Assembly (NCBI GenBank): GCA_963575745.1
Contig: CAUYUJ010000002.1
Span: 1,488,001-1,552,000 of the forward strand
Length of the DNA: 64,000 nucleotides
Direction: 5' to 3'
DNA from: Prorocentrum cordatum
Lineage: Eukaryota
Part shown: positions 27,004-50,927 of the stretch, in pieces
Layout of the letters: the number at the start of each line of letters is the position of its first letter
Position numbering within the stretch: the first letter of the stretch is position 1
The notes under the pieces: generated by a model
What the model was told of the DNA's origin: nothing
What the model saw: only the letters and a program-made list of their open reading frames with translations
The model's database searches: none
Program-made: the position numbers and the translations under genes

Positions 27004-27013
27004 CATGTAACGC

Positions 27014-27089
27014 TTGTGATGCCCACGCGCCCCTTTGTAGATAGAATCCAGGAAAACAGCGCGATAGGCAAAACATAGAAAAACATAGG
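27014..27089 (+). repeat. Left terminal inverted repeat
   Basis: TTGTGATGCCCACGCGCCCCTTTGTAGATAGAATCCAGGAAAACAGCGCGATAGGCAAAACATAGAAAAA matches the reverse complement of 50852-50927 with about 2 substitutions and 1 indel. Confidence 0.92.
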
Positions 27090-27730
27090 TTTCCGCGGAG
27101 GTTGAACATAGAAGCCAGTTTTGGTTTTCATTTAGGCGAACGCGGCTTTCTAGTCGCAGCGCCGCCCGCGGTCCGAACGCCGCCAGCTCTTTAGAACGCC
27201 ATAGCTGAAGATTGTGTTTCTTCCAAAGGCAGTCTAACCCTTTGGAAAAATGCTTTCGGCGCTCTAATGCGCCGCCCTGGGTTTGAACAAAGCGTGCCCG
27301 CGCTCTCTTTGCAGTTCCTAAATGGCCCGAAATGGCGCCACGAAGACCCAAGATGGCCCAATCTGGCTTCACCGTGGCGCAAGACATGTAAGCGCGGCTC
27401 ATTAATCGCCCGCAACGGGCTGGAGTGAAGAACACGAGCGGCACCAAGACGGCCCCAGAGTTGCCGCGGGCCGCCAAGGACGCCCCCGAGAAGCCAAGTC
27501 TCATTCCAAGCTGAAATAAACAAAGGGGCCGAAGCCACAAGACGGCCTCCAAAAGACTGCCAAAGACGGCCACCAAGACGACCCAGCGCGCCCACCAAAG
27601 GATCGCAACACGACCCCGAGAAGTTGCCCAGACGGCCGAGGCGCACCCAGGACCCATCGAGATAGTCTTGAATGGACCTTGACGTCCCAACAAGGGCAGC
27701 AAAGGACAGGCGGAAGGCGCAATAGCGAAT

Positions 27731-28402
27731 CCCACCAGCCCTTTGGGCGACGGTGGTCTAACGAGATTCCTCTTCCCTCTGCCAACAACTCATCGTCCCC
27801 TATGGGGAAGGGTCTACCCCTCCCCCGACCCCCTCCCCTGGACCTGGACGGGGGGATGGTAGCGGGTGGTTGGAGCGCCCTGTTTTCTGACAGTGGGGAG
27901 CTTATTGTTTGACACCGCTCACAGGGATCGCGGCCTCCGAGGGAGGGGGCGCGATCGGGACGTCCCCTCTTTTCACCGACCGCTTCCAAGATGGCCCCCA
28001 AGAGGCCCTCCAAGGCCCCCAAGAAGCTCCCAAGAGCGTTCCAAGACCGCCCCAAGAGGCACCAATATTGCCCCAGGACGGCCCCAGAGGCCCCCAAGAC
28101 GACCCAAAGGGGGTCCACATACGGCTCAAATGGCTTCCAATACGCCCAAGATGGCCTCCAAGAGCGCCAAGATGGCCCCAAGAGAACCCCTGATGGCCCC
28201 ACGATGCCTCCAAGGCGGCCCAAGATGCACCCAAGACGGCCCAATATAGCCTCAGGATGGCCCAAGAGACGACCCCAAGGGGCCTCCAAGACGGACGTTG
28301 TTTATGATTGAATTGCTTGCTGCTACACTTCCCTCATCAAGACAACGTGACCTGGCGGCTGTCTTGGGATGGGCTGGTGGGGATACGCGAAGCGTGAAGA
28401 CT
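27731..28402 (+). mobile_element. Non-autonomous Helentron/DINE-like element, family 1
   Basis: 5' CCCACCAGCCC, 3' GGGCTGGTGGG followed by hairpin ACGC-GAA-GCGT; internal GGCCCAAGA repeats; colinear homolog at 49599-50273. Confidence 0.65.
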
Positions 28403-29025
28403 ATAATGTGAACTTTGGGCACATCGCGAAGCTGAAGATGCGGGGGGGGAGGACTACGAGGATCATAATAACGAAGATGAGGATAAGGACAAGGGCCAAG
28501 GGAGAGGAAACAATCAGGAGAGGACCCTGCGCGGCGAACATACGAGGAAGGAAACTCCTGAACCAACCAACGACGGCGGTGGCGGCGGCGGCAACGACGA
28601 CGACGACGAGCTCCCCTTTTTGAGCTTGCGACGCTCTGGGACAGCCCGAGGGCCCCCCAAGACCATACCAGCACGACCCAAGAGAGCGCCCTAAGACGGC
28701 CCAAGAGTGCCCAAGAGAGTCACACGCCAGACGGCCCAAGACGGCCCAAGAGGGTTCCAAGGCGGCCCAAAGAGGGGCCCATGAAGAGGACCGCGAACCA
28801 AACATACGAGCCTTCCGCCCCAATAGGCAACCAGGAAGCCCCAAGATGCCCCGAAGAGCCCCCAAGACACCCCGAAGCCCCCCCCCAACAAACCCCAAGA
28901 GACTCCCCAAGAAGCCTCTTGGTCCAAGAGCCCACCCAGGCCATCAAGCTTGTGACGATGTTTTCGTTTTTTGTTTTCAAGGCTCCAGCTGCGGCCCAGC
29001 TGTCTCGGCAATCGCCGTCGTTCGT

Positions 29026-32000
29026 CTAGGACACCCGCTGCATCTTGACGGCCCTGCCCGCCATCTCGAGGAGGCCCGACGGCACGGACTCCTGGATCCC
29101 CAACTTCTTGATCTGCGCCAGCGGGTCCGTGCATTGCTTCCGCATCCTGCTCAAATCGGACTTGTCCGTGTTGGCCGCCACGTACGCCAAAATGCCACCG
29201 TAGTGCGCAGCCCTGGCCATGCGGAACAGCTTCTCACCAAGGTCGATTGCCGTCTTCGTCGGTCCCGAAACCACGTCGTAGAACTTGGCGGCTTTCACCA
29301 TCTGGCTGTGCTTGGAAACCAACTCGTCGAGCATCTTCTTCCGCTGCTCGGGCGAGTACGTGAAGATCGTGTCGCCAGCCGCAGTCACGCAATCCCCGAT
29401 GATGTCGGCGTTGGCAGCGGCAGCGTACCACATCGCACCGTCGGTACCCCCGCCTGCAATGTCCTCCCACTTGTTGGACGCCACATCGTCATCGAAGGCC
29501 TGCTTGTACATGCCCACCACTGCAGTGCTGATGAAAGTGATGTACGCTGGCGTGAGCTCGTCGTCAAGCATGCGCTTCATAGGGTCGGGCGCGCGCTCAT
29601 GCAGCTCGGACCTGATCGAGCTCATGGCCTTCGCAAGGCTGATTGCCTCCGCCATGAGATTAGCCCCAGCCTGCGTCACTGCAAGGTCCCTGTAGGCAGC
29701 GCGGTCCGTACCGAAGTGGTTCTCGAGTCTCTCGAGAAGGCGGGCCTGGTCGAGGGCAGCGCCCACGCATTTTTTCCACTGATCGTACCCCGTCGCCTGG
29801 ACCCAATTGAACCACGAAGCAATAGCATCGCCAATCGCATCCGCCAGGTTAGTAGTGAGGGTGCCTTCGTGCTTGTGGTGGTGGATCGCCTGCTCCACTA
29901 CAATGAACGCCTTGGCGATCACTCTCTGCTTGGCGCTTTCCTTCGTCGAGGGGTCGATGCCTGGGTAGACCTGCTGAGTGAACGTGACCGTCTTTGCCGC
30001 CATGAGGCGCCAGTCGCCACAAGAAGCAACGGCCTCGTGGGAGAAGAACAAGTCCAAGTCATTGAGGTAGGCCGCGGCAGCCTTACCAGTCTCCAGGACG
30101 GGGATGGCGTCGTTGATCTGCTTGAGGGTGTCCGCCCACTCGCCGCCGAACGAGAGGTGGCTGTGAACCGCAACGAACAAGGAGCGCTGGCACCCCCAGA
30201 AGCTATCGATGGCGGCGGAGGAGGATTTGTCCGAATCGATGTCACCGATCGCCCGCTTCACCTTGGCAGCCTCGTCATTCACCTTCGCACGAAAAAGGTC
30301 CTCGAGGATCTGCGCCGAGCCTGGCCGTGACTCCTTCATAAACGTGGAGAGCTCCTTCGCCATTGTGATCAAGCCATTCGTGGTCACGGCCTCACCAGCA
30401 CGCAACGTCGCAATCATGGTGTCGATCATCGGGCGGAGCTTCCGCGTTTGATCCATGTAAGGCTTGAGCTTGGTGACCATTTCCTTCGTAACAGTCTCTG
30501 TCCTCAATGCCGTCGCCAACTGAGTCCGCGGGTCCTTTATGTCACGTTTCGCATCGTTGCGAAGGAGGTCCAGGAAATCGCTCCAATGCTCCACTGGAGA
30601 AAGAGGGTCCATCAGGCAAGCGAGACCTCGAAGGCAAGTGAGGAGCTTGAGAACTGCTTCGACGGCGTCGTCCTCCATCTCCCCAGAATCGGTCCAACGC
30701 TCGATGACGTAGTTGATCATGGCCATGATATTCTGGTAATCCTTCTGGTCCACCAGCCGCGCCATGACGCAGCCTGCGATGAAATGCCGAGTGAAGAAGT
30801 CAATGAACATGAAGGACTTCTCCCTGATGGAACCATCGATCGTGTTGAGCGTGGGGGCCTTCGCGTTGAACTTGAACCTCTCGCCGTCTGCCTCCGTATC
30901 CTGCTGGGCTGCGCCCCCGGCGTCATCGCCAGCGCCGCCGCGCCTGCCCCAAGGCTCCACAACGTCCAAGAAGTGCGTCAACGTGTCGACCTTGCCGCTG
31001 ACAAGCAACGCCGCCGCGTCAGCGCACTCCCTGGTGAGCAGCTTCGTTTTGAAAGGCGTGGGGAAGTCCACCCCATGTTCAATCAGGTCACTCACGATCT
31101 TCTTAAGCCTCTCGATCGGCATGGTGTTCACGTGATCTTTCGGCTGGGATATCTCCTCCGCTAGCTTGCCCATGGCATAGTGCTGGTTGCAGGCGTTCAG
31201 TTCGTTCTTGAGGGTGGTGTCGGAGCTCTTGGCGTCGATCCAGTCTTTCAGCCTCCTGCGTTCCTTGCCCATCTTCTGACCCGAGAGGATGGCGACGATG
31301 TCGTACTTCATGATCGTGTGCTCCCACGCGCTCATGTCGCCAAGGTCGCCACATTGAGAATCTCCGTCGCCAGAGTCGCCGAGCGAGGTCCTCGATGTCC
31401 CATGGCTGATAGTCGACATGCCGCTGCCGAACCTTTGTTTGTTGATGCCCTTGTTGTCGGGCGTCCTCAGCTCCCCAGCCCCAGCGCCAGAGACGTGGCT
31501 GGTGACGTCCTGCACGTCGGGATCCTCATCGTCGCTAGCAGGAACTGGTGGCGGCGGCGACCCGTCGACCAACTGCTGTAGCTTCTTCTGCAGCTCCTTC
31601 ATTGTCAGCGCCGCAGCCATCCTCTTGCGATTAATATTCCACCCAGTGTTGCCCTTGTTCATCGCCTTGGTGACCATACCAGGCTGCTCTTTGCGGTAAT
31701 GCTTGCGCTTATCCAGCTTCGTCCGCTTGGTCGCAAGGGTCGACCTCTTGAAAAACCTGAAGCGCACGTACGGTTGGTTCAAATCCTTCATGAGCACGCC
31801 CTTGAACTTGTCGCCGTTGGGCCCCACGAGGTCTTGAATCTTGAGCCCTGCCTCCGACGGCTCGCGGCCCTGGGCGATCTCCTTGAACTGGGCGACGGTG
31901 AGGCCGACGCAGTCCTGTGATACCTCGACGCCAATGTCGCTGTCAGAGTCGATGCCAACCTCGTCGAAGTCCTTCACCTTCTCACCCCTCTTCACAACGG

Positions 32001-32376
32001 CACTCTCATCGAACCTCTCGTTCGTCTCCTCGTTATTGCGGCACTCCTTGCTCACATCCGAAAACGACCCTTCCACGGCCCACGAATCACGATGAACGGT
32101 GGCGCACTCGAGGCAGGCTGACCCGACGGGGACAGCGTTGCCATGCTCATCGGCCCCAGTCAAAGCCCACGGCTTCATGCTGCCAGGCGTGACACCACAC
32201 CGTTCGCACTTACAAGAGTTCCCCACTGGCTGGCGACCTCGGGTCGGCACCGACGGCCCCGATGCAGACTTGCTGGAGGCCGCCTTCTTCTTCTCTCTAG
32301 GCTGCCGTGGGGCTGACGAGCTGGCCTTCGACTCACAGTCACTAGACGGCTGGCGTTTCGCTTTCTTCCTGACCAT
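29026..32376 (-). CDS. Intronless 1,116-aa hypothetical protein: basic N-terminus, CxxC..CxxC/H Zn-finger-like motif, apparently helical C-terminus
   Basis: 3.35-kb uninterrupted, non-repetitive ORF with strong G/C third-position bias; likely start MVRKKAKRQ at 32376; CERCG...ACLECATVH. Confidence 0.85.
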   Translation of the reverse strand: MVRKKAKRQPSSDCESKASSSAPRQPREKKKAASSKSASGPSVPTRGRQPVGNSCKCERCGVTPGSMKPWALTGADEHGNAVPVGSACLECATVHRDSWAVEGSFSDVSKECRNNEETNERFDESAVVKRGEKVKDFDEVGIDSDSDIGVEVSQDCVGLTVAQFKEIAQGREPSEAGLKIQDLVGPNGDKFKGVLMKDLNQPYVRFRFFKRSTLATKRTKLDKRKHYRKEQPGMVTKAMNKGNTGWNINRKRMAAALTMKELQKKLQQLVDGSPPPPVPASDDEDPDVQDVTSHVSGAGAGELRTPDNKGINKQRFGSGMSTISHGTSRTSLGDSGDGDSQCGDLGDMSAWEHTIMKYDIVAILSGQKMGKERRRLKDWIDAKSSDTTLKNELNACNQHYAMGKLAEEISQPKDHVNTMPIERLKKIVSDLIEHGVDFPTPFKTKLLTRECADAAALLVSGKVDTLTHFLDVVEPWGRRGGAGDDAGGAAQQDTEADGERFKFNAKAPTLNTIDGSIREKSFMFIDFFTRHFIAGCVMARLVDQKDYQNIMAMINYVIERWTDSGEMEDDAVEAVLKLLTCLRGLACLMDPLSPVEHWSDFLDLLRNDAKRDIKDPRTQLATALRTETVTKEMVTKLKPYMDQTRKLRPMIDTMIATLRAGEAVTTNGLITMAKELSTFMKESRPGSAQILEDLFRAKVNDEAAKVKRAIGDIDSDKSSSAAIDSFWGCQRSLFVAVHSHLSFGGEWADTLKQINDAIPVLETGKAAAAYLNDLDLFFSHEAVASCGDWRLMAAKTVTFTQQVYPGIDPSTKESAKQRVIAKAFIVVEQAIHHHKHEGTLTTNLADAIGDAIASWFNWVQATGYDQWKKCVGAALDQARLLERLENHFGTDRAAYRDLAVTQAGANLMAEAISLAKAMSSIRSELHERAPDPMKRMLDDELTPAYITFISTAVVGMYKQAFDDDVASNKWEDIAGGGTDGAMWYAAAANADIIGDCVTAAGDTIFTYSPEQRKKMLDELVSKHSQMVKAAKFYDVVSGPTKTAIDLGEKLFRMARAAHYGGILAYVAANTDKSDLSRMRKQCTDPLAQIKKLGIQESVPSGLLEMAGRAVKMQRVS

Positions 32377-33503
32377 CGCAAGGAAGGGCGCGCCCGCTGG
32401 AGGCCGACCCGCCAAGTGCAGTGCAAAGTGCAGGTGGCACTGCAAGCCTCACATCTGGAACCTTCTAGAGCCCACATGCCTACGGCGAGCGATGGCGAGG
32501 GCAATGCCAGCTCCAAGTGGAACGCCGCCTCCTGGAACCGATTGGCCAGTCCAGGCCCACCCTTCGCGTGCACCAGACCCCACCCCCCCTGGCTAAACAG
32601 TCTTGGGCCCTTCTCATCAGCCCCCTATTGGTCTCGATAGCCTGGGCCTTCCCCAGACGGCCCCGACGCGGCCTATTGCTAGGAGCCCGACAGACGGCTC
32701 TAGATGACACAATACGGCTGCACCCCAGAGCCTACGGATAGCAACGACACCATCGCGCCGTCGGATCGTTTCTGGATGGGCTCTCTTAGGTATGTTGGAT
32801 CGTTTCTGGATGGGCAGCACCTGCGGTCATGGCAACTCCCTTGGATCGTTTCTGGATGGGCGGGTCAGGGGGGGGGGCGAAGCGCTCGAGATCACTAGAA
32901 CGACGCTGTTCGCAACCGCCTGCCCCCCTTTGATGTTTACGTTCTGGGGCATGCGTTGTTCGGGTTGTGGGGTTGGGGCGCCACGCCCTCGAGAGAAGCA
33001 TCGGGGCGAACGCTCTCTGCGGGTGACCCTGGGTGGCTGAGGGGGCGGATGGAGGGGGGAGATGCGGGGGGGAAGCGGGGAGGTGAGCTTGAGGGGGGCA
33101 GATCGCGCCCAGCCGACTGGGATGGCGGAAGAGGCCTGGGGGGAGGGACGAGGGAGGAGGAGAAGGCGGGAGGGACATGGCGGCGAGAAGGGCGGCAGGA
33201 TTGAGGGCGGGGACAGGCAGAATACAAGTGACGCCATGTGCAAAAATAATGCGTTTGATCAAAGTACTCTGGTTGAAGCTGCTGGCCGATGGCGGACCAT
33301 GCCGTCTCCCCTACACGCTGCGCTCTCTGGCGGCCACAACGTGCAATTGCTGCAACACCTGAAGCAGCGATCGGCATGGCGATTGCAACACGAACTGTAA
33401 AACCACCTATGTGCCGCCCGCGCGTGGTCGGCGACCTCGCGCGCTCGAGAGGCTGGCGCGTGCTGCCCAAAGTGCGGCTCTCAAACTGGCCACGCTCGAC
33501 TCA

Positions 33504-39153: not shown

Positions 39154-39986
39154 GAACGCGAACTTGGTGCGCGACCGCTCGCCTCCAACTTTTTCAGCAC
39201 CCAAACATTGATGGCTGCGCGCGCCTCCAATGATCACGCGCAGTGCCGATAGGCAGGCGAGCGCGCCCGCAATCGTGGTCGCCGCCGCCAGCGCGGCCCC
39301 AAGACGCGCGCCAACTCAACAAGGCGCGGTCGCATCGGCGACGACGCACATTCGCCCCCCCCCCGCCCCCTCCCCCCCCGCCCACCTTGGCAGCGCGCCC
39401 GCAGACCGCCAGGCGAACCCAAGCGATTCCCCGATGAACCCCGCCGCGGCAGACGAATCTTCGGGCCGAGCGAACGCAAGAGGCCGAACACCGCAGCGCA
39501 AAACGGCGCTGCTGCTCTTCGCGCGGACATCGGCTTCACGACAGCCCGACCGCCACCGACCGTTGTTTGCGCCCTTCTGCGCGCAATCGCGCGCGCCGCC
39601 CAGGGCCACCGCGCGCGAAGGTCAGCTGCGGGCCGCTCCTTCGCCCTTCCTCTTGCACATCTGCGTCGGCCGACCGCCAGCCAGCAATCACTTCGCAGCG
39701 CGGGCCGCCCATGCAACGCATGGCTGCAGCGCGCGCGAACGCAGCGCGCACTGCCGACCACATCGGGCGCGCGCCGCGAGCGGCGCCAACGCGCTGCGGC
39801 GCCGCCCCGAGAATCACCAATCACCCATGTCAGCTGAGCGGGGCTATGACTGGGCAAGGAGAGGACGAAACTGATGTTAGGGGATGTGGAGATAGAGCTT
39901 GCGCGGCCAGCCTTGGGTCATAGAGCAGAGGGCTGTGAACGGGACGTTCGCGGGCAGCGCACGCACCTTTTTTTTCGGTATACCCA

Positions 39987-42704: not shown

Positions 42705-45700
42705 TTACCTGAACGTATCGCACTCGCTATCCTCGCCGTCAACCTTGTCTCTCTCTTTTGACAGAAGAAGGCGGCCATCAGCCATGGCCTTCAACGCATC
42801 ACGGGCCGCCCTCCTCCGTAGATACGAGGGGCGGCAATGAAAAATGTGCTCCCTGGCCCCGACATAGTCATCGTGTGACAGGAGCCACGCCGCCAAGAAA
42901 CCAGCAGGCCTGCCGACCCAGCGCCTGGCTCCCGCGAAGCACTGCCGATTGACTTTGCACGCGGCCCTGCCGCCGTGGTCCACGCAGTCGCACAGCGCGA
43001 ACATGCGGCGGCTGGCCGCATACCAGACCAAGGTCCCGCCACCGAACCGCATGCTGATCGAGTCGCCGTACTCGTCAGGCGCGGCATGGCCAGCGCGAGC
43101 GGCAGGGGGGGCATCGTCCTCGCTCTCGCCCTCGCCCCCGCCACTCGCCTCAGCATCGCTACTTGATGACGAGGACGAGGACGAACTGGACGACGAAGAC
43201 GCTGAGCTCGACGAGGAGGCGGGCTCCTCCCCGCCCGCGCTGCCCTCGTCTTCGCCCACGTCGCCGCCGCCCTCTGCGCCAGAGTCGCTGCCGTCGTCGT
43301 CGATGGCGGCCAAGGCGCCCCAGCTGCCGCGCGGCTCTCTCGCAGCAGGCGGCTCCCAGATAAGCCGCAGCAAGCCGTCGCCCAAAAGCGATGTATTCAG
43401 GCGCCGTGGGCGCACGGCATCGAGGACGCCGTCCTTGTCCTTCGCAATCCAGAAACAAGCGTGCCATGTCAATTGTAAATCCAAGTCCCCCAGAGCCCGC
43501 ACGTCAATACTCTCGGAGTACGCATAATCAAGCATGACGTCATTCTCGAAAGCAGCCCGCCCCTCGCGAACATCCAGTGAAAAGCCATCTCCTGCCACCA
43601 GTATGCTGAAATCAAGGCGCCACGGCCGCTGGTGAACGTCACCGATCAAGAGCCACTTGGACTGGTGCGAGCCTGCATCGCAACGTTCATGGTCTTCCAG
43701 TGCCAGCGGGGGATCGCGCCCTATCAGGAGGACAACAACCCGAGCAGCCAATAAACTAGATCGCTCAGTCGAGCCAGCAGGGCACGCTGCCTTGGTCGCA
43801 GAGACAAGGTTGCCGATGCACCTGGCAATCTTGCGGCCCTGCCCACTGCAAATGCACATCCCAGCATCATGGCACTTGCGGTGTGTCAGTGGCGGCTCTC
43901 TGCTCCATGCAACGGTGCGGACCGGCAAATTGGCTGAGCGCCAGGCTTCGGAAGCTGCCTTGAATAACGTCTTCACTGGGCGCGTTGCTGGGTCCAAGGC
44001 CGCAAGGCGGTGAGCCACGTTCGCCAAGTCAGGCGGTGACCACATAACCCTATGGTACGAAGGTTCAGGTTGTGGGTCCGACCAACTTCGCTGCAGCATG
44101 TCAGTATCCATCACGGGCGCGCATCTCTCTAAGTATTCCTGCAAACCGCCTGTGCTGAGCTGGTACGCCTCTAACCTTCTGCGCTCCCTATCAGATATCC
44201 GCCTCGATAACATGGATGCGGCTCGCCACGCCTTCTTGCAATGGCGCAAGCCATCGATTGGAACGCACTCTGCGGTGTTGCCCAAGTCGCCGCTGAATGC
44301 AACTTCACTGGACACTCTGCGGGCGGCCAACTGGAAAGGGTTGTCCACCGTGTCTCCCAAGCGCTGCGCCTCGGACTCAATGCGGTCGGCAAGCTGGGCC
44401 AACGTGATGTCCCGAGCAGCGTGGCTGGCGACAGGCGCACCGCCGTCGTCCCCGATTGCAGTTTCCAGGGCATTCATGTCATCAGCACGTTGCTTCAAGG
44501 CGCGCTTGTCAGGGCCTGACAGCGCTTGGTAAGCCTCCGAGCACTCAGAGAAGGACGTGCACGCACGGGCCCGCAGCTGGTCACTACAGTAAACGGACCA
44601 CGCGCTGTGGAGACGTCTCCTGCGCCTCCCATCTGGCCTCTCAGGGCGCGCAAGGGTCGCGCCGCCACCGTCGACCTCAACTCGCTGCCCTGGCAACTTC
44701 CGCATCTCAGAATGCAACTTGTCAGCGTTCAACCGCTCGACGCTCACCCGCTTGGACTGCGCGCTCAAGCCGATGAGCCGACGCCGCGACGTAGCGTGCT
44801 TAGCTTCAATCTGCACTGTCTCCTCCCTCGCATACGTGGCCGTGGCTCGCAAGTGGGCAAGCAAGTCGGCTGACAGCGGGTCCCCGCCGTACGCCTCGAG
44901 AATGGCGTCCGACCACTGGTCTCGCACACACGGTCTGTCATCGAGTATTTCGGCTGCCACTCTCTCGCGCTCGTCGCCGAGCAGACCGAACAACTTGAAG
45001 GGGTAAAACCTATGAATACCGAACCCCACCCCCCTTACCCTGGGCGCGGCGGGCGTCGGCGACAAAGGCTTCTGGGGGGGGGGCGATTCCGCCAGCCCCC
45101 ATGGGCCATGGACCCCGGGCGGATCAACGCGACACCTGCGCCTCAGATTCTCTGTTCGATTGAGTGCCCGCCGTCCTACCAAACCCGCGCCGCGGACCGC
45201 GACGGCCCCAACACGAACCCAATATAGCAACACGTTGCCCGAGATGGCATCCAACATTGCTCCATGACACCTTCAAATGGCGGCGCAACCCTTTCCATAG
45301 CGCGCCAGTGCGTGCCACGCCTTCCGCGGCCGCATCAGCTGCCGCAGGCGTAGTCGATGGGCTGGGGCTGGCGGGGGCGCGAAGCGTCAAGAATTTAGTT
45401 CATTGGTTTGCAAACGATACGGTGGACACGTGGAGCGGCTGGCGGGGAGGGAAGACGGGCAAAAGGATGATACGGGCGATATGTGGACGGAAAGGTGGAG
45501 TGAATGGCGGTGGGTCGCGGCTATCCGCGCATGCCGCCGCGCCTCCCCCTTCTGTTGTTCGGCCTTCCAGCCGACGCCCGCCGCCCCTAGTCCACATCCC
45601 CACCCCCGTGGCTGTGTGGCGAACTCCGAGAAGGGGTTCGGTTCGGTAGATTGCTTGAACCTGTGTCTCTCCATCAACGCGTTGACCCTGCAGCAAGACT

Positions 45701-48700
45701 TCGCAGCAATCCTACCAGCCCTCTGGGCGTGGGTGGTCTAGGTCGCCCGCCCTGTTCAACCCCTACTCCTCTCCTGTCGGGGCGGGGTGCGATCCCCCCT
45801 CTACCCCCTTCTCCCTGGGCCTGGATGGCGCTCCATCGCGATGGATTGGGGCGACCTTTGGATCCAAGGATGGGTGCGTAAGAGTGCTCAAGATGCCGCA
45901 GCGACCGCCCAAGATAGCCATCCCTGGCCCAATATCGCCCACGACATGTCTACAAGTGGCCCCCACCTCGCCTCAATGCGGCCCCAGGACGCAACGCGGC
46001 AACGATGTCTCCCAAGGACGCGCCCGAGAAGCCAACTTCGCACCACAACCTTAGGGACAACCATGTGCGCGTGTGCTTCCTTTCTTGTCTGTTCGTCTCT
46101 TCTGGCGCCTCCAGCTAGCACTAAGATGACACCAGCGAGGCAACGTGCGGGCCCGAAGAGAGGTCCGAGGCGGGCCCGAGTGCGCTCAAGGGCGCACCAA
46201 GAGCGGCCCATAGGGCCATATGGCACTATGCGGCGACGGTTCGGGCCTGCGGGGGGCGGGGAGGGATGAAACCAGATAAATGCTCGCAGCTTTGTTTGAT
46301 CGAGGGTACCCCTCACACATACGTCCCATGCCCTCCCAGGGTGCCCCAAGACCCAAGATGGCCGTGCAGCGTACAGCGCCCCAATACGCCCCTAAGAGAG
46401 CCTTGGGGGGGGCCCAAGAGAGCACCGAGAAACCTGTACCCTGCAAACACCCTACGGGGAAACCACCAGAAAACATAGGAGGTGGAGGGAGGAGGCGGAG
46501 ATGTGCGAGAGCAGGAGGCCGCGTGGGCCCGAGCACCACGACCGTCGGCTTTCGTCGCAAAGGTGGCTGGTTTGGGATGTGCTGGCGGTGACACGCGAAG
46601 CGTACAGACTTGAAAACACCCACGCCTCCCTCTCGCCAGTGCGACCAATGGACGGTATGTGCGACCACAGCGAATCATCCATCATTACCACGTGCATGTC
46701 ACGAATGAACTCAGCATCGCGCCTCGCTCCGAAGACCTCAAGCATCCTATATGTGGGACGTGGGCCGCCGCCATCGCCCGCATCCAGTGCACGGACGGCC
46801 TGTGTGCGGTCCCACTCTTCCGATGCCAATCTGAGCAATCCTAACATCGCCGCGCAGGGCGAGCATGGCTTACGACAGTTTCTTCCCCTGCGGGGATATG
46901 TAGAGACTTACATGCGCCAAACCTTGGCGCGCCTGGGCGCGGCGGGCGGAGGGCGGCAGGAGCGTCCAAGATACCCCCATATAGCTCCAAGACTTGCGTG
47001 GGAATGCACACGACATCACCGTGCCACTTCAATCATGCCCAACGTGGCTCAAGGTAGCCCCAAGCCCCAACGGCACGGGCACAGACGATGCCGCGGCACG
47101 CAAACGCACGCATAAGGTAACCAACGGTCGTATTGGCACGCGCAACTACACCCGCCAACACTCACTATGCATGATGTGCTATTATTGTTGCTCCCCCTTC
47201 CCCCCCGCCGACCGTCCCCAAATTATCAAATTGCTGGCCAAGGCGATAACTCTAATTACACAGTGGGCCCCATACCCTCGCAACCTTGGGCCCGACCAGG
47301 GGAACTCGTGACCAGGACAACTCGAATGGGCCACGCATGGGCAATCTCATTAGCGAGCCTGGGCGTGTCGCGAAGCGTCACTGATTTGAACATGTACGCA
47401 CGATGAGGCTCCATGAGGGATCTAATTGCAAAGACGTCTGCGAATGGACAGTCGTACTCCCTCGTGGCCCAAAGGGGCGCTTCTCGCCGATGCCCGTCGG
47501 CGGCCGCGCGAGCGGCAGCCACTGGATCAGCAACGCCGCCAGAGCCAATCCCCAATTGCGACTCGCCTGAAAAAAAACAAAGAAGAGATGGGGGGCGGAG
47601 ATGAGGGGGGTGAAGAGGATGGCGGGTTTAGGGAGGCAGCCTGGTGCAGCATAATCACCAGTAGTACCAGCTCGCCTGCAGAACGTCACGAAGGCTTCAG
47701 CGAAAATATTGTGAACCGCCAACAAAACACCGATCCAGGACGGCGTGACCTCAGACCCAACCCAATTCCGACTAGGGAACGATTTAGGACCATCTCCAAC
47801 AAGCGCTTTCACGAACGTTGTCCGAAACAAGCGCTTGATGTACGCATCTGGCTTGTCAGATGTCGTGAAAAAGTGAACCCGTTCCGTATCATCCCAAGAA
47901 CCATTGGCCAACGACAATATGACAGTCCTGCGCTTGACCGCACTGGTATCGTGGAGGCCTGGCAACAAACGATACAACACATCTGCGTTCTTGGCAACAA
48001 CTCTGGGGTGCGGCAGCGTGTCCCTGACAATGTTGAGCCGCCTCATGACGATGTCTCCAACGATCTTGCGGAATTTCAGCATGCAACTGGGGCCCTTGAG
48101 TGCCAGCGCTGTGTGCGTGAGGGAGCTGATGAGGCCTGAACGAAGGGAACACGCATCATGTTTCGCAGTCGCTGCCCTGTGGACGTGGCACCTGTTGTGT
48201 AAAGCCAACTGCCCAGCATCCAGAACGCTGAAAAACCTCTCAGCCCCGGCGATCGCACCGTCGCCATCCGTGCACACAACCCTCTGCCTGTGCTTGAACA
48301 ACCTCGACACTCCAGACGTATCCAAGCCACTCGCCTCCACCGCGGCTGCGTAGTTCTCGCCTTTGCCAGCCGTCATAACCTGGATCGGCACGAGCACGTT
48401 GAAAGAAACCTCAGTGTATGATCCACCGATCTTGAACAACATAGTGTACAACCATTCTGTGTTCAACAATGGCAATTTTGACACATGAGTTGGTTCTCTG
48501 CCGCCGTCCATGTCGATCTGAGCTCTGGAAAGGTCGTGTCGCTCCAACGCGGTTCCAACTACTAGTTCCAAGGATGCGTCGTCGTTGTCAAAACATGCGG
48601 CTGTCAGCTTCGTCTCATCAAACCTGCACTGTTGAGAAAACAACATGCACCCGCCACCTGCACTTGTAACCCTCCCAACGCAAGCATTCATCATGCTGAT

Positions 48701-49447
48701 GGCCATTGCTCGTTCTGTCAACATTGCCAGCGCCATAAACCGTGACTTACATCTTGCGAACACCGACCTGCTAACTCCAGCAGCTTGGGCACTGACACTT
48801 TCACTCATCATATGGTTCGCCAGTTTGCCACGGATCGCATTGATCGTATCTGTTGCCACTTTGTCGAACATACCTGGTCTGTCAGGGTCCTCTCTTATGA
48901 CGCCAAGCGCAACCAACAATGGGTTATACAGGAGGCTACCGCGACGCTGCCGTTGAACATGCAGGAGGCCCCGTAAACGTTCGCAGTCCTGATCTAAGGC
49001 ACCATCTGGCGGCCCGACTGGACCAGCAACAACAATCTGCATCTCATCGGGCACGACGTCGCCAACGGCACCCTCGATGTCGGCTGGCTCGCCGTCGCCT
49101 TCAGAGGCGCCCTCGCCGTCGGCTGGCTCGACGTCGCCGCGCGGAGCTGCCAGCGGCGCGGCGATGTCCTTGGCCGCCAGAGCAGCACCAACGGGTCGCC
49201 ACAGCTCCTGGGCGGTGGCGCGCCGCCGACGCCGCTTAGCCCCCCTGTCCAGCGGAGGCCCGTCCCGCGCGGGCTCCTCGGCGCCGTCCTCGACAGGGCT
49301 CAACGAGCCTGCTGCTCCCGCGAGAGCCTCCCAGCCGCCCGCGTCGCCATCCGCGAACGCAGCCCAGCCGCCGCTGGGCGGCGCATCGGCCTCGCTCGGC
49401 GATGGGCTGGACGGCCCGACGAAATGCGCCCACCCCTCCAATGGCAT
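42705..49447 (-). CDS. Putative spliced DDE transposase, ~1,523 aa. Exons approximately 49447-47641, 47566-47387, 46840-46612, 45711-45661, 45009-42705
   Basis: Joining ORF pieces gives one continuous frame (4,572 nt). Motifs: RFDETK (~48618), VCTDGDG (~48267), RCHVH (~48185), TVQIEAKHA (~44806), HMG-box-like SAWSVYC..FSECSEAYQALSGPDKRALK, KCHDAGMCIC, C-terminal CDCVDH..C..GRPAGFLAAWL..H. Introns 1 (47567-47640, AG|GC..TTTCAG|G) and 4 (45010-45660, AG|GT..TAG|G) are clean; donors of introns 2 and 3 are uncertain; an AG|GT just before the stop could mean a further exon. Confidence 0.72.
45711..46610 (+). mobile_element. Family 1 Helentron-like insertion forming transposase intron 3
   Basis: CCTACCAGCCC...GCTGGCGGTGACACGCGAAGCGTACAGACT; precise removal (900 nt) at T|T restores the frame WVFS-IAAKS. 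Confidence 0.7.
46840..47385 (+). mobile_element. Degenerate family 1-like insertion forming transposase intron 2
   Basis: Right end CGCGAAGCGT plus 7 nt, left end CCTAACATCGCC; precise removal (546 nt) at T|T restores YMFK-LLRLASEEW. Confidence 0.55.
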
Positions 49448-49598
49448 GGAGGGGCTGACGCCTGAGCCAAAATGGCTACGGATGTGCCAAAGCAACAGAA
49501 CCTCTTGGAGAATTTGCAAGGCTTCTAATACCCCCGTTCAATGCAATCAGTCTTCGGAGGCTTCTATTCAATCAATACACGGGCGACTCTATCGTTAT

Positions 49599-50273
49599 CC
49601 CACCAGCCTTTTGGCGACAGGTGGCCTAGATGCCTCTTCCCTCTTCCAACAACCCCTCTTCCCATTCAGGGAAGGGTTTATCACTGCCCCCTTCCCCGTC
49701 CCACCTGGGCGGGCGAGGGGGCCGCGCGTAGTTAGTTAGAGCGCACCTTTTCGGACCATGGGAATGCTATTTTTGCCACCCTCACACGGGTCGTGGCCTC
49801 CGAGGGGAGGGGCATCGATCGGGGCGCCCCCTCTTTTCACCGACCGCTTCCAAGATGGCCCCAAAAATGCCTTCCACGGCTCGCAAGGGCCCCCAAAGAG
49901 AGATTAAGGACCGCTCCAAGAAGCCCAGACATGGCCCCATGACTGCCCCTGAGGCCCCCAAGACTGCCTTAAGAGGGCCCAAAGACAGTGCAAATTGCCT
50001 CCAAGACGCCCAAGGTGGCCTCCAATACGGCCAAGATGGCCCCAAGAGAGCCCAAGATGGCCCAATGTCTCCAAGACGGCCCAATATGCACCCAAGACGG
50101 CCCAATATAGCCCAAAGATGGCCCAAGACGGCCAGAGACGACCCCGACAGGCCTCCAAAACGGATGTGGCTCACTTTTGGATTGTTGCTCGCTGCTACAG
50201 CCCCTTCATCAAGGCAGCTCGCCTGGCGGCTGTTTTGGGGTGGGCTGGTGGGGATACGCGAAGCGTGAAGAGT
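49599..50273 (+). mobile_element. Non-autonomous Helentron/DINE-like element, family 1
   Basis: Same ends and internal sequence as 27731-28402; T|T flanks, no TSD. Confidence 0.65.
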
Positions 50274-50851
50274 TGTTTAGCCTCTGTTCAATCTACGCGC
50301 GGCTTCTACTCGATTCATCGTGCTGCGAAGCAGCAAAAAGAACGCACAGCATGAGAGAGCTCTGGCCACAAGACGCGTGGATTCACCTGCCTCCAAGACT
50401 GTCCATCTACAGCATGAGCTCGGCCACAAGACGACTATGCCCCCCCTCCCCCCGTCCCCAGTCCAACCCCCTCCTCTATCCCCTGGGCTGGCCCACTAAG
50501 GGCCCGTGATCCCGATAAATTTGCAGGTGGCGTCTAGATGTCCGTCGCGCCCCTCCCTCTGCCAAAGCTAACTGGTCGCGGAGGAGGGCGAGGGCCCTCT
50601 TCCTAAGTATCAGGCCCTCCGTCGGAAGAGGGGCATAACGACTAGGCAGAGGGCAGGCGATTGCGGGGAAGACAATGAGAAGGGGAGGAGGAGGAGGAGA
50701 AGAGCAACATGATGACGTAGAGGAGAGTGAAGAGCGATTTGAAGGAGAAGGTTTGGGTGCCCATTCACAATCGCGCATATAATCGCATCCTGTTTAAAAA
50801 AAACCAGGCGCCCTCACAACGAACATGGTTCATTTTTTTTCTATCGGCGGC

Positions 50852-50927
50852 CCTATCATTTTTCTATGTTTTGCCTATCGCGCTGTCTTCCTGGATTCTA
50901 TCAACAAAGGGCGCGTGGGCATCACAA
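50852..50927 (-). repeat. Right terminal inverted repeat
   Basis: TTTTTCTATGTTTTGCCTATCGCGCTGTCTTCCTGGATTCTATCAACAAAGGGCGCGTGGGCATCACAA, the reverse complement of the left TIR. Confidence 0.92.

What the first reader, a model, noticed from the sequence alone, without database searches (positions are those of the whole stretch)
27014..50927. Giant (~24 kb) cargo-carrying TIR DNA transposon with an unclassified DDE transposase
Seen: ~75-bp inverted repeats 24 kb apart enclose the only long intact genes in the window, all on the minus strand. Known: a D..D-x-CxxH..long helical insert..E layout characterises hAT/MULE/P/KDZ and IS66/IS256-type transposases. Inference: this is one large autonomous element with its own accessory genes, possibly an undescribed eukaryotic family; the ends (TTGTGATGCCC) match no superfamily terminus I recognise.
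Basis: partly seen in the sequence, partly recalled or inferred. Interest (0 to 1): 0.92.

Follow-up and report, generated by a model that had tools for sequence, protein, structure and literature searches.

The report
Large hAT-like transposon in a dinoflagellate
A 24-kb stretch bounded by 70-base inverted repeats is most likely a large cut-and-paste DNA transposon of a dinoflagellate, and its roughly 1,650-residue transposase folds like the Hermes (hAT) enzyme but belongs to a large protein family that has no name.

Summary
Two 70-nt inverted repeats (67 of 70 bases identical) lie at 27014/27015-27084 and 50858-50926/50927. They are the only copies in the window, and they enclose the window's only long open frames, all on the minus strand.

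It encodes a full-length member of a family of about 1,600 residues: 1,304 cluster representatives, and no Pfam or NCBIfam match. Its invariant residues are D, D, CxxH, then E about 440 residues later.

An AlphaFold model of a 35%-identical homologue has an RNase H-like core with a large helical insert. Its best solved match is the Hermes hAT transposase (Z 13). An HMG-box-like domain follows the catalytic helix.

A spliced-leader (DinoSL) relict lies upstream of each of three minus-strand genes, so the host is a dinoflagellate.

The termini read TG..CA, and the flanks allow a 5-bp duplication (ACGCT). A 16-mer from the repeats recurs as a palindromic array at the element's exact centre.

Mobility is not shown. 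No genome was held and no second copy was found. No host-derived cargo was recognised.

Verdict: a real TIR transposon with an unclassified hAT-like transposase, a new variant of a known kind.

The parts
27010..27014 (.). Candidate 5-bp target-site duplication ACGCT, left copy. The alternative is a 3-bp CGC at 27011-27013 with the element starting at 27014.
   Evidence: Read directly. The same 5 bases follow the right end. The flanks form a near-palindrome around it (CATGTA-ACGCT-AACATG).
27015..27084 (+). Left terminal inverted repeat. It starts 5'-TGTGATGCCCACGCG, and its inner part holds the 16-mer GATAGGCAAAACATAG.
   Evidence: 95.7% identity over 70 nt to the right end.
27729..28400 (+). 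Left copy of a 690-bp subterminal repeat, in direct orientation relative to 49597-50271. It is partly related to tandem repeats outside the element (57302-57458, 58446-58585).
   Evidence: 77% identity over 693 nt.
29026..32376 (-). Intronless gene for a 1116-aa protein of unknown function (ATG 32376-32374, stop 29028-29026). It has an N-terminal CxCxxC..CxxC cysteine cluster and a basic stretch, and the rest looks helical by eye.
   Evidence: No Pfam, PDB or NCBIfam match and no homologue was found.
32468..32485 (-). Degenerate DinoSL relict (3 mismatches in 18), about 90 nt upstream of the ATG of the 1116-aa gene.
35239..35949 (-). Possible third gene. The first ATG (35949) lies 10 nt after a DinoSL relict, and the frame stays open to 35239. 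It may continue in 33504-34418. No homologues were found.
   Evidence: Its status as a gene is inferred only from the leader relict and the open frame.
35959..35979 (-). DinoSL relict (3 mismatches in 21).
38980..39155 (.). Palindromic array of the TIR's 11-nt unit ATAGGCAAAAC: about 5-8 units in minus orientation, then 5 in plus. The axis is at 39094/39095, which is 12.08 kb from the left end and 11.83 kb from the right end.
   Evidence: Of the 12 matches to ATAGGCAAAACATAG in the window, 10 lie here and 2 in the TIRs, against 0.01 expected.
42705..49447 (-). Transposase gene, about 1,650 codons in at least 4 coding pieces. By homology these are about 49447-47654, 47534-47385, 46847-46605 and 45014-42708, with the stop at 42707-42705. 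Exact splice sites were not resolved.
   Evidence: tblastn with 1,600-aa homologues. (the family HMM of 1584 positions is covered at positions 8-563, 612-659, 657-740 and 755-1580)..
48179..48619 (-). First half of the catalytic core: D at 48619-48617 (RFDETK), D at 48268-48266 (CTDGDG), and C at 48190-48188 and H at 48181-48179 (CHVH).
   Evidence: Invariant columns D120, D237, C263 and H266 of alignment A4. These equal D304, D416, C443 and H446 in A5.
44784..44807 (-). Catalytic E (44807-44805) and the conserved RR (from 44786), in the motif IEAKHATSRRR.
   Evidence: Invariant E70 and R77 and nearly invariant R78 of A6. These equal E885, R892 and R893 in A5.
44436..44627 (-). HMG-box-like three-helix domain directly after the catalytic helix.
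   Evidence: Window model m65be90c3b8ef, residues 130-193. In VIA-align wide, about 25 of the top 30 rows are HMG boxes, at Z 5-6.7 with about 60 residues aligned. Weak profile hits support this: TFAM and NHP6A at E 0.07, and Pfam HMG_box in 1 of 21 members at E 0.14.
43848..43874 (-). Conserved Cx5CxC cysteine motif (KCHDAGMCIC) in the C-terminal half. A second Cys/His cluster lies near the C-terminus (CDCVDHGG..C).
   Evidence: C1221, C1227 and C1229 are invariant in 21 of 21 long homologues. C381, C387 and C389 are nearly invariant in A6.
49461..49482 (-). Near-perfect relict of the 22-nt dinoflagellate spliced leader (21 of 22 bases). It ends 13 nt before the transposase ATG.
   Evidence: The DinoSL sequence was checked in PMC6050394.
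49597..50271 (+). Right copy of the 690-bp subterminal repeat. This sequence is high-copy in the runs laid on the window.
   Evidence: summed depth of 3782 in bin 49510-50176, against about 15 for the body in X1.
50858..50926 (-). Right terminal inverted repeat.
50927..50931 (.). Candidate 5-bp target-site duplication ACGCT, right copy.
   Evidence: One metagenome contig (X4 record 32) matches the flank from 50928 outward and runs on into unlike sequence at the repeat's outer edge.

Best explanation
The interval 27015-50926 (23.9 kb) is one class II (cut-and-paste) DNA transposon in the nuclear genome of a dinoflagellate.

Its ends are 70-nt terminal inverted repeats that begin 5'-TG and end CA-3'. 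It sits in a near-palindromic target next to a (TAC)n microsatellite, probably with a 5-bp duplication (ACGCT).

It encodes a transposase of about 1,650 residues. Reading from the N-terminus, this has: a disordered N-terminus and a helical N-domain; an RNase H-like DDE core (D, D, CxxH) interrupted by an all-helical insertion of about 430 residues before the catalytic E; an HMG-box-like domain; and a cysteine-rich, beta-rich C-terminal half.

Inferred mechanism, by analogy with Hermes and other DDE enzymes: transposase multimers recognise the ends, probably through the 16-mer GATAGGCAAAACATAG in each repeat. That 16-mer also forms a palindromic array at the centre, which may help bring the two distant ends together, and the HMG-like domain may bend the DNA. 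The DDE site then cuts at the TG..CA termini and joins the 3'-OH ends into a staggered (5-bp) target.

The element carries two further minus-strand genes of unknown function, a 1116-aa protein and a smaller candidate. All three genes carry spliced-leader relicts, so their present copies passed through, or were converted by, trans-spliced mRNA.

Shown: the repeats, the gene, its family, the fold, the conserved catalytic residues and the leader relicts. Inferred: mobility of the whole unit, the duplication length, DNA binding to the 16-mer, and the splicing.
For: TIRs:
- 70 nt at 95.7% identity, and the only two copies in 64 kb.

Gene and family:
- 1,600-aa homologues and the family HMM map colinearly onto four minus-strand pieces covering HMM positions 8-1580 of 1584, with no stop inside any piece.
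- hmmsearch found 1,304 cluster representatives at E<=1e-3, 552 at <=1e-10 and 64 at <=1e-30. Many are 1,500-1,700 aa long.
- Invariant in 21 of 21 long members: D304, D416, C443, H446, R483, E885, R892, R893, C1221, C1227, C1229. All are present in the window.

Fold:
- The AF2 model of homologue P0006 (35% and 47% identical to the window's pieces) has pLDDT 77 and pTM 0.74, with 528 residues at pLDDT >=90.
- Its order of beta1-3, alpha, beta4, alpha, beta5 puts D302 on a strand, D411 at a strand end and E875 on a helix after the helical insert.
- Foldseek's top 10 hits are all Hermes, though at weak E-values of 2.6e-3 and above.
- VIA second look: Hermes 6dwz_A has Z 13.2, rmsd 3.8 A and 367 residues aligned, against Z 9.1 or less for integrase cores, 8.0 for ISCth4, 7.2 for the P element and 6.0 for RAG1.
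- An independent search of 48,161 chains gave Hermes at Z 12.9 with 373 aligned, and the next hit at 9.1.

Ends and motif:
- The 15-mer of the TIR occurs 12 times in the window, all inside the element (2 in the TIRs, 10 at the centre), against 0.01 expected.

Boundary:
- One metagenome contig matches the right flank from 50928 and diverges at the TIR edge.
- The right flank and subterminal bins have far higher summed depth (295-3782) than the body (10-18) in X1.
- Several contig joints link position 50681-50684 to different internal points, as internally deleted derivatives would.

Relatives:
- In L006 and L007 (one element, 99.2% identical over the overlap), a 1712-aa uninterrupted ORF is flanked by the same 11/12-mer in opposite orientations: 9 copies downstream and at least 1 upstream at the contig start.
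- L011 has about 22 tandem 11-mers just after the stop codon, followed by inverted copies.

Host:
- There are three DinoSL-like matches, all on the minus strand inside the element. Two lie 10-13 nt before a first ATG and one about 90 nt before it. Expected 0.07, with 0 of 100 shuffles reaching 3.
Against: - Only one copy was seen. No genome is held for the window, and the TIR 19-mer has 0 exact matches in the metagenome contig collection.
- No second insertion, no empty site and no independent duplication was observed.
- The 5-bp duplication rests on a single pair of flanks with some freedom in placing the boundary. A 3-bp CGC fits as well, and no 8-bp duplication (the usual hAT length) is present.
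- In run X1 each part of the body is covered by single contigs at roughly even depth, so multiple diverged full-length copies are not evident.
- The transposase reading frame is interrupted three times. Splice sites could not be fixed and no RNA run was available, so the gene may be broken rather than spliced. The third interruption contains high-copy repeat DNA (depth 1455 in bin 45508-46174).
- The fold was modelled on a homologue and on the window's C-terminal piece, not on the window's whole protein.
- The central palindrome splits the unit into two near-equal halves, each bounded by inward-facing copies of the motif. That also fits two abutting elements.
- The two 690-bp subterminal repeats are direct, not inverted.
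Confidence: 0.6

Rival explanations
1. These are two related elements lying side by side or nested, not one 24-kb unit. One would be an autonomous element of about 11.8 kb (39095-50926) with the transposase. The other would be a non-autonomous element of about 12.1 kb (27015-39094) carrying the 1116-aa gene. Their inner ends would be the two halves of the central motif array. A composite that moves by its outer ends is a variant of this reading.
For: - The central array is a head-to-head arrangement of exactly the inner part of the TIR. The 16-mer GATAGGCAAAACATAG occurs at 38981-38996 (minus) and 39095-39110 (plus), as it does in both TIRs.
- Each half is therefore bounded by inward-facing motif copies, as the simple relative L006/L007 is.
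- In relatives the arrays lie within a few hundred bases of the transposase ORF, and the unit is only about 6.5 kb.
- The axis lies within 1% of the midpoint.
Against: - The inner ends lack the outer 50 nt or so of the TIR, including the TGTGATGCCC terminus. That 19-mer occurs only at the two outer ends, even at up to 3 mismatches.
- There is no duplication or flank DNA between the halves.
- The palindrome is confined to about 175 nt.
Confidence: 0.17
2. The two repeats are ends or solo copies of small repeats (MITE-like) that happen to flank a cluster of resident dinoflagellate retrogenes. The DDE protein would be a dead, domesticated or merely neighbouring member of a large gene family, and the 24 kb has never moved as a unit.
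For: - Only one copy was seen.
- The subterminal and flank regions are high-copy while the body is low-copy.
- All three genes carry DinoSL relicts, the mark of retroposed genes in dinoflagellates (PMC6050394 passages). The genes could therefore have arrived by retroposition rather than within a transposon.
- The transposase frame is interrupted.
Against: - The repeats are in inverted orientation, at the outermost positions, and enclose all the genes of a 64-kb window that has no other long frames or leader relicts.
- The TIR motif recurs only inside the enclosed interval.
- All catalytic residues are intact.
- The transposase start lies 1.4 kb from one TIR.
- A contig breaks at the TIR's outer edge.
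Confidence: 0.15
3. This is an integrated linear replicon or virus-like element. The terminal inverted repeats would serve replication, and the central palindromic repeat array would be an origin.
For: The layout of terminal inverted repeats plus a central palindrome of iterated 11-mers recalls iteron-type origins and linear replicons. This resemblance is recalled, not tested. Two of the three genes have unknown function.
Against: - No polymerase, capsid, packaging ATPase, integrase or primase domain appears in any of 72 frames scanned against Pfam.
- There is no relative in the viral contig collection.
- The one identifiable enzyme is a cut-and-paste type DDE transposase.
Confidence: 0.03

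Closest known systems
hAT superfamily transposons (Hermes, Ac, hobo). The Hermes transposase structures are 6dwz, 8edg and 4d1q.
   Same: - Best structural match by a clear margin: Z 13.2 and 12.9, with 367-373 residues aligned spanning both the RNase H-like core and the large all-helical insertion domain.
- D, D, CxxH after the second D, and E after the insert.
- Repeated short motifs in the ends. That hAT elements have subterminal repeats is recalled.
- hAT subgroups with 5-bp duplications exist (hAT5; PMC12730594 passages).
   Different: - No sequence match to any hAT Pfam model or to Hermes.
- The protein is about 2-3 times longer, with an HMG-like domain and a 750-aa Cys-rich C-terminal half.
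- No BED finger was detected.
- The TIRs are 70 nt and start TGTGATG. That hAT TIRs are short and of another consensus is recalled.
- There is no 8-bp duplication.
- The element is 24 kb with extra genes.
CMCT group (CACTA/EnSpm, Mirage, Chapaev, Transib, Plavaka; RAG1)
   Same: - Large multi-gene TIR elements with arrays of short binding motifs. That CACTA has these is recalled.
- Duplications of 2-5 bp (PMC12730594 passages), which fits either candidate here.
- PlavakaA termini are TGT..ACA (same passages).
   Different: [quoted passage not shown]
- The termini here are TG..CA, not CA..TG.
- RAG1 is only a weak structural match: Z 5.6-6.0 in the second look, and it is not among the 50 rows listed from the wide search.
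- No Pfam Transposase_21 or Transposase_24 match.
KDZ (Kyakuja-Dileera-Zisupton) transposons
   Same: Very long transposases with cysteine-rich (CxC-type) regions. Zisupton has TIRs (PMC12730594 passages; the CxC domains of KDZ are recalled).
   Different: - No match to the Pfam KDZ or CxC models in the window frames or in 16 and 21 homologues.
- Zisupton makes 8-bp duplications. Kyakuja makes 7-bp duplications and has no TIRs.
- The cysteine motif lies C-terminal to the core here.
Mutator/MULE elements and bacterial IS256 (ISCth4 structure 6xgx)
   Same: DDE core with a CxxH-type motif (recalled for MULE). ISCth4 aligns over 263 residues at Z 8.0.
   Different: - A clearly weaker structural match than Hermes.
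- No Pfam MULE or Transposase_mut match and no NCBIfam IS-family match.
- No 9-10-bp duplication (the MULE length is recalled).

Membership tests
Class II TIR (cut-and-paste) DNA transposon | Terminal inverted repeats at both ends | tested here: met
   70 nt at 95.7% identity, only 2 copies in 64 kb, 0.04 expected.
Class II TIR (cut-and-paste) DNA transposon | Encodes a DDE/RNase H-fold transposase with an intact catalytic triad | tested here: met
   D, D and E are invariant in 21 of 21 long homologues and present in the window. The RNase H-like fold was modelled on a 35%-identical homologue, with Hermes at Z 13. Integrity of the mRNA (three interruptions) was not tested.
Class II TIR (cut-and-paste) DNA transposon | Target-site duplication flanking the ends | tested here: inconclusive
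   One pair of flanks allows ACGCT (5 bp) or CGC (3 bp). No second insertion was available to confirm either.
Class II TIR (cut-and-paste) DNA transposon | Several copies at different loci, or presence/absence polymorphism | not testable with these tools
   No genome is held. The TIR 19-mer has 0 exact matches in metagenome contigs. There are only indirect hints from contigs, namely a break at 50928 and high-copy ends.
hAT superfamily | RNase H-like core interrupted by a large all-alpha insertion domain, with a [C/D]xxH motif after the second D | tested here: met
   Model secondary structure plus the Hermes alignment over 367-373 residues. C443 and H446 are invariant.
hAT superfamily | Sequence membership: hAT C-terminal dimerisation domain and other hAT Pfam models, or similarity to Hermes | tested here: not met
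   0 Pfam families at E<=1 for the window frames and for 21 long homologues, and at E<=0.01 for 16 homologues. The profile search against PDB sequences gave no Hermes hit at E<=10.
hAT superfamily | 8-bp target-site duplication (rarely 5-7 bp) | tested here: inconclusive
   No 8-bp direct repeat flanks the TIRs. A 5-bp one does. hAT5, hAT6 and hAT7 exist (PMC12730594 passages).
hAT superfamily | N-terminal BED-type zinc finger | tested here: not met
   No Pfam BED match. The N-terminal ~170 residues of the model are disordered. That BED fingers are typical of hAT is recalled.
CMCT (CACTA/Mirage/Chapaev/Transib/Plavaka) | [quoted passage not shown] | tested here: not met
   Between D416 and E885, the only invariant columns among the 21 long members are C443, H446 and R483. 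The motif definition comes from PMC12730594 passages.
CMCT (CACTA/Mirage/Chapaev/Transib/Plavaka) | 5'-CA..TG-3' termini and 2-5-bp duplications | tested here: inconclusive
   The termini read TG..CA (or TTG..CAA), not CA..TG. The duplication candidates of 3 or 5 bp fall within the range.
KDZ (Kyakuja-Dileera-Zisupton) | Match to the KDZ transposase and CxC domain models | tested here: not met
   No Pfam match in any of the sequences scanned.
MULE / IS256 | Match to the MULE or Transposase_mut models, or to IS256-family models | tested here: not met
   No match in Pfam or NCBIfam. ISCth4 reaches only Z 8.0.
Superfamilies known only from Repbase-type libraries (Novosib, Kolobok, Dada, Academ, Sola, Zator) | Sequence similarity of the transposase core to their reference proteins | not testable with these tools
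   No library of these transposases was available. Their duplication lengths, as recalled (8, TTAA, 6-7, 3-4, 4 and 3 bp), do not single one out.
Dinoflagellate nuclear gene / retrogene | 22-nt DinoSL or its relict upstream of the coding sequence | tested here: met
   21 of 22 bases at 49461-49482. Weaker relicts at 35959-35979 and 32468-32485. Three matches against 0.07 expected. Sequence and criterion come from PMC6050394 passages.

The most novel reading that the evidence does not exclude
This is a full-length, multi-gene representative of a not yet described superfamily-level lineage of eukaryotic DDE transposons. The features that set the lineage apart are:
- a hAT-like fold but no detectable sequence relation to hAT;
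- transposases of about 1,600 aa that carry their own HMG-box-like DNA-bending domain and a Cys-rich C-terminal module;
- TG..CA termini and a 5-bp duplication;
- iterated 11-12-nt motifs at the ends.

The lineage would be abundant in marine protists, since 1,304 clusters at 50% identity were found.

In dinoflagellates its genes, including the transposase, bear spliced-leader relicts. That would mean a DNA transposon whose genes are renewed through trans-spliced mRNA and reverse transcription.
Probability: 0.3. Interest if true: 0.7.

Novelty: new variant of a known kind. Interest (0 to 1): 0.55.

Why it matters
Dinoflagellate genomes are huge and repeat-rich. In the papers I could search, their DNA transposons are barely characterised. 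One recent genomics review has a single mention of 'DNA transposon' and none of 'transposase'.

This window gives a complete anatomy for a very large protein family that has no name and no Pfam model: ends, candidate target duplication, candidate binding motif, a full-length transposase and companion genes.

If the family is confirmed as an active transposon lineage, it would:
- add a branch to the hAT-like group of DDE enzymes;
- give a handle for annotating a sizeable part of marine protist 'dark' proteins;
- offer a case where a cut-and-paste element interacts with the retroposition and spliced-leader machinery of its host;
- provide a natural test of how DNA bending is built into a transposase, through its built-in HMG-like domain.

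Tried and rejected
- **Whole-genome search for other copies.** No genome is held for the window.
- **TIR 19-mer in metagenome contigs.** 0 exact matches.
- **Relatives in viral contigs.** None.
- **Relatives in metagenome contigs.** 11 loci, all on contigs of 6.5 kb or less, so no complete relatives.
- **Relatives in prokaryote genomes.** One hit (L012, an actinobacterial contig). I rejected it as spurious because it lies antisense to a subtilisin-like protease gene in GC-rich DNA.
- **Word-based protein searches.** One relative for the transposase piece, none for the 1116-aa protein, and only the query itself for the 21-sequence profile. No source names were obtained.
- **Services that did not answer.** The organisms and names behind the 1,304 relatives therefore remain unknown.
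- **Earlier findings of this scan.** Nothing by place or by sequence.
- **Sequencing runs.** No RNA holder was listed, so splicing and expression could not be examined.
- **Contig evidence I did not rely on.** In X1, contigs join 37843 to 39351/39355 and the bin 38171-38837 has almost no depth. Both joint ends lie in poly-C tracts, so I did not treat this as a real deletion variant.
- **Coding potential.** A codon-usage score trained on the three long frames did not separate coding from non-coding frames and was dropped.
- **Splice sites.** Enumerating splice sites scored by the family HMM could not discriminate between alternatives (timed out, 74).
- **C-terminal half by Foldseek.** No match with E<=0.001, so the beta-rich and C-terminal Cys/His domains remain without a known fold match. 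They were not folded alone.
- **Other scans.** Rfam found no RNA family in the window. No DinoSL (up to 4 substitutions) was found in the 12 fetched loci, so those contigs cannot be assigned to dinoflagellates.
- **TIR of the window against the end of L011.** Only (A)CGTTGTGAT is shared, which is not enough to call homologous ends.
- **TIR extending outward to CATGT.** I considered this and rejected it. The outer 10 nt match in only 7 of 10 positions, no duplication flanks that boundary, and a palindromic target fits better.
- **Literature.** Five searches turned up no paper describing this family. This covers only the held open-access library. Repbase/Dfam and subscription journals were not searchable, and no supplements were read.

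Full report
**1. The observation**

- Reading both ends shows the same sequence in reverse complement, starting TTGTGATGCCCACGCG.
- BLAST gives 95.7% identity over 70 nt between 27014-27083 and 50927-50859. MAFFT shows one single-base indel and no similarity beyond about 71 nt.
- The terminal 19-mer occurs twice in the 64 kb at up to 3 mismatches, against 0.04 expected. A 44-nt inner part also occurs twice, against 0.00 expected.
- The window is otherwise made of satellites and microsatellites. Tandem Repeats Finder gave 89 rows. A 2.8-kb (TAC)n array (24195-27003) ends 10 nt before the left repeat.
- The three longest stop-to-stop frames, of 1140, 855 and 719 codons, all lie between the repeats on the minus strand.

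**2. One long gene, not two**

- The 719-codon frame has RFDETK, CTDGDGA and CHVH. None of the three frames matches Pfam at E<=1.
- A word-based search found one relative at 43% identity.
- A two-sequence profile searched by HMMER against 1.84 billion cluster representatives found 1,304 proteins at E<=1e-3, 552 at <=1e-10 and 64 at <=1e-30. Many are 1,500-1,700 residues long, with the matched domain at about residues 190-610.
- tblastn of eight of these against the window hit 48958-47630, 46838-46563 and 45017-42711 colinearly.
- An HMM of 21 long members (1584 positions) maps to four minus-strand frames:

| HMM positions | Window frame |
|---|---|
| 8-563 | 49537-47381 |
| 612-659 (weak, E 0.005) | 47627-47259 |
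| 657-740 | 46907-46455 |
| 755-1580 | 45272-42708 |

- I could not fix the splice sites. Alternatives with GT or GC donors score alike. No RNA run was listed.
- Whether the interruptions are introns or disruptions is open. The third one holds high-copy repeat DNA.

**3. What the protein is**

- Residues invariant in 21 of 21 long members are D304, D416, C443, H446, R483, E885, R892, R893, C1221, C1227 and C1229. All are present in the window.
- An AlphaFold2 model of homologue P0006 was built from a 73-sequence alignment. P0006 is 910 aa long and 35% and 47% identical to the window's pieces.
- The model has pLDDT 77 and pTM 0.74, with 528 residues at pLDDT >=90. Its strands and helices follow the order of an RNase H-like fold.
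- The first D lies on a strand and the second at the end of the fourth strand. The E lies on a helix that follows a helical insert of about 430 residues.
- Foldseek's ten best PDB matches are all Hermes transposase, though with weak E-values of 2.6e-3 and above.
- VIA-align results for this model:

| Match | Z | rmsd | Residues aligned |
|---|---|---|---|
| Hermes 6dwz_A (second look) | 13.2 | 3.8 A | 367 |
| Retroviral integrase cores | 7.8-9.1 | - | about 130 |
| ISCth4 | 8.0 | - | 263 |
| P element transposase | 7.2 | - | 315 |
| RAG1 | 6.0 or less | - | - |
| Hermes (wide search, 48,161 chains) | 12.9 | - | 373 |
| Next best (wide search) | 9.1 | - | - |

- The family is thus a DDE transposase of the Hermes-like architectural class.
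- There is no sequence-level link to any curated family:
  - Pfam: 0 hits for 16 homologues at E<=0.01 and for 21 at E<=1.
  - NCBIfam: 0 hits for 8 transposase sequences.
  - PDB sequences: nothing significant.
- A second model, of the window's own C-terminal piece (769 aa, 38-sequence alignment, pLDDT 74), shows a three-helix domain at residues 130-193.
  - About 25 of the top 30 VIA-align rows for it are HMG boxes, at Z 5-6.7 with about 60 residues aligned.
  - This agrees with weak profile hits to HMG proteins and one weak Pfam HMG_box hit.
  - At these Z values it is a lead, not a proof.
- The rest of the C-terminal half (the Cx5CxC motif, a beta-rich domain and a terminal Cys/His cluster) found no fold match.

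**4. The host**

- A 21-nt match, with 1 mismatch, to the dinoflagellate spliced leader lies at 49461-49481 on the minus strand. It is preceded by T, so 21 of 22 bases match, and it ends 13 nt before the transposase ATG.
- Weaker relicts lie at 35959-35979, 10 nt before the first ATG of a 236-codon frame, and at 32468-32485, about 90 nt before the ATG of the 1116-aa gene.
- That makes three matches at up to 3 mismatches in 18 nt, against 0.07 expected, with 0 of 100 shuffles reaching three. All are on the minus strand and inside the element.
Passages seen there give DCCGUAGCCAUUUUGGCUCAAG and describe relicts upstream of coding sequences as the mark of retroposed genes, including genes with introns.
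- So the window is dinoflagellate nuclear DNA. All three genes of the element have at some time been copied from, or converted by, trans-spliced mRNA.

**5. The ends**

- If the element starts at 27015 and ends at 50926, its termini are 5'-TGTGATG..CATCACA-3' and both flanks carry ACGCT.
- If it starts at 27014, the flanks share only CGC.
- No 8-bp repeat is present.
- The flanks are themselves nearly symmetrical (CATGTA-ACGCT-AACATG). I read this as a palindromic target rather than as an extension of the repeat.
- This rests on one insertion only.

**6. Repeated motifs**

- The inner part of each repeat is made of 11-nt units (ATAGGCAAAAC).
- The 15-mer ATAGGCAAAACATAG occurs 12 times in the window at up to 2 mismatches, against 0.01 expected. 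Two copies lie in the repeats and ten lie in a palindromic array at 38980-39155, with its axis at 39094/39095.
- The axis is 12.08 kb from one end and 11.83 kb from the other.
- This is either an internal binding-site cluster of one element or the abutting inner ends of two related elements.
- A 690-bp segment is repeated in direct orientation about 0.7 kb inside each end, at 77% identity. It is related to tandem repeats outside the element.

**7. Evidence on mobility**

- No genome is held, and the 19-mer has no exact match in the metagenome contig collection.
- Contigs of four public runs were laid on 31501-51500.
  - In X1 the body is covered by single contigs, 98.5-99.7% identical to the window, at depth 10-18.
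  - The subterminal and flank bins sum to 295-3782.
  - Several joints connect 50681-50684 with different internal points (33163, 41780, 49482), as internally deleted derivatives would. The sides of these joints are short (about 20 nt) and the region is repetitive.
  - One marine-metagenome contig (X4 record 32, 577 nt) matches only 50928-51161 and runs on into unlike sequence exactly at the outer edge of the repeat.
- These are hints, not a demonstration.

**8. Relatives**

- Eleven metagenome loci encode relatives at 25-32% identity, all on contigs of 6.5 kb or less.
- L006 and L007 overlap at 99.2% identity and together span about 6.5 kb.
  - They hold an uninterrupted 1712-codon ORF.
  - Nine copies of an 11/12-mer lie downstream in one orientation, and at least one copy lies upstream, at the contig start, in the other.
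- L011 has about 22 tandem 11-mers starting about 200 nt after the stop codon, followed by inverted copies.
- L008 starts with a 42-nt tandem array.
- So short-motif arrays next to the gene, in one case in inverted orientation on both sides, recur in the family. This fits transposon ends and suggests that the simple form of the element is about 6-7 kb.
- No locus contained a relative of the 1116-aa protein or of the other frames.

**9. The other genes**

- The 1116-aa protein (32376-29029) has an N-terminal cysteine cluster and a basic stretch.
  - It has no Pfam, NCBIfam or PDB match and no homologue by the word-based search.
  - A 1140-codon open frame in 60% G+C DNA is not a chance event, so it is a real gene of unknown function.
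- None of 69 further frames of 120 codons or more in the element has a genuine Pfam domain. One frame has sub-threshold low-complexity matches.
- Hence 'cargo' in the sense of captured host genes is not shown. These may be element-specific accessory genes or retrogenes that landed in the element.

**10. Comparison with known kinds**

- By architecture and structure it works like a hAT-type transposase.
- By membership it fails the sequence tests for hAT, MULE/IS256, KDZ, the P element and CACTA.
- It lacks the C(2)C and H(3-4)H motifs that define the CMCT group in PMC12730594 (passages seen).
- According to the same passages, its candidate duplication of 5 or 3 bp fits hAT5 or CMCT-type elements rather than typical hAT (8 bp), Zisupton (8 bp) or Kyakuja (7 bp, no TIRs).
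- Superfamilies that exist only in Repbase-type libraries could not be tested.
- The statement that the [C/D]xxH motif is shared by hAT, MULE, P and others is recalled from Yuan and Wessler 2011, which I did not read here.
- Five literature searches and passages of PMC12130899 and PMC11453091 showed no description of this family. The held library is partial, and no supplements were read.

**11. Verdict**

This is a TIR-bounded unit of about 24 kb that encodes a DDE transposase of an unclassified, very large family.
- I give 0.6 to the whole interval being a single transposon, 0.17 to two abutting or composite elements, and 0.15 to an immobile arrangement of independent repeats and retrogenes.
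- It is a new variant of a known kind rather than a new kind of element.
- Interest is moderate (0.55). The family is large, unnamed and structurally informative. The spliced-leader relict on a transposase gene and the built-in HMG-like domain are unusual. But mobility, cargo and superfamily rank remain unproven.

Noticed in passing
window 49461-49482, 35959-35979, 32468-32485 (all minus strand): Relicts of the dinoflagellate spliced leader lie upstream of all three minus-strand genes of the element, and none occurs elsewhere in the window. The copy before the transposase ATG is nearly perfect (21 of 22 bases). This suggests a recent passage of a DNA-transposon gene through trans-spliced mRNA.
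   Followed up: partly
window 24195-27003 and 42272-42441: A 2.8-kb (TAC)n microsatellite abuts the left end of the element. A 170-nt copy of the same repeat in inverted orientation, (AGT)n, lies inside the element just downstream of the transposase stop codon. These two arrays gave the longest 'inverted repeats'.
   Followed up: no
window 27729-28400 and 49597-50271: A 690-bp segment is repeated in direct orientation about 0.7 kb inside each end (77% identity). It is partly related to the 11-nt tandem repeat at 57302-57458 and to 58446-58585. It is very high-copy in the runs laid on the window. Its role is unknown: a nested repeat, a promoter region, or a subterminal structure.
   Followed up: partly
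window 37830-37843 and 39351-39375: Long poly-C tracts flank the central 1.5 kb. Contigs of run X1 join 37843 to 39351/39355, and the bin 38171-38837 has almost no depth there. This could be a real indel variant lacking the central array, or an assembly artefact at low-complexity DNA.
   Followed up: no
window 44436-44627 (minus): An HMG-box-like domain is built into the transposase right after the catalytic helix. It was seen by structure only, with weak sequence support.
   Followed up: partly
L011 4850-5216: In a 25%-identical relative, about 22 tandem 11-mers (TAGGTTTAAAG / TAGGTCAAAAG) follow the stop codon. Next comes the sequence AACGTTGTGAT, which resembles the window's left junction AACGCTTGTGAT, and then inverted copies of the 11-mer up to the contig end. 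The rest of the two ends does not align.
   Followed up: partly
L006 5750-5885 and L007 1-20: Two contigs from different samples carry the same element (99.2% identical). Together they show the same 11/12-mer (AAGTACTTCCCA) in opposite orientations on the two sides of an uninterrupted 1712-codon transposase ORF. Both contigs break inside the arrays.
   Followed up: yes
L012 9818-10318: The only 'relative' found in prokaryote genomes is a chance match on the antisense strand of a subtilisin-like protease gene in a GC-rich actinobacterial contig.
   Followed up: yes
window 1-24000 and 51000-64000: The flanks consist almost entirely of tandem repeats with units of 12, 24, 41, 64, 73 and 77 nt, some recurring every few kb (for example ACGTGCCAGGGG arrays and a 41/77-nt unit), plus long trinucleotide arrays (CGT, CGA, GAC, GAG). 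No long open frame outside repeat DNA and no spliced-leader relict was seen there.
   Followed up: no
L001 2456: The 11-mer TTGTGATGCCC, identical to the tip of the window's repeat, occurs once inside or next to the coding region of a 32%-identical relative. About 0.02 such matches are expected by chance in the 40 kb of loci (my own estimate; no call computed it). The meaning is unknown.
   Followed up: no
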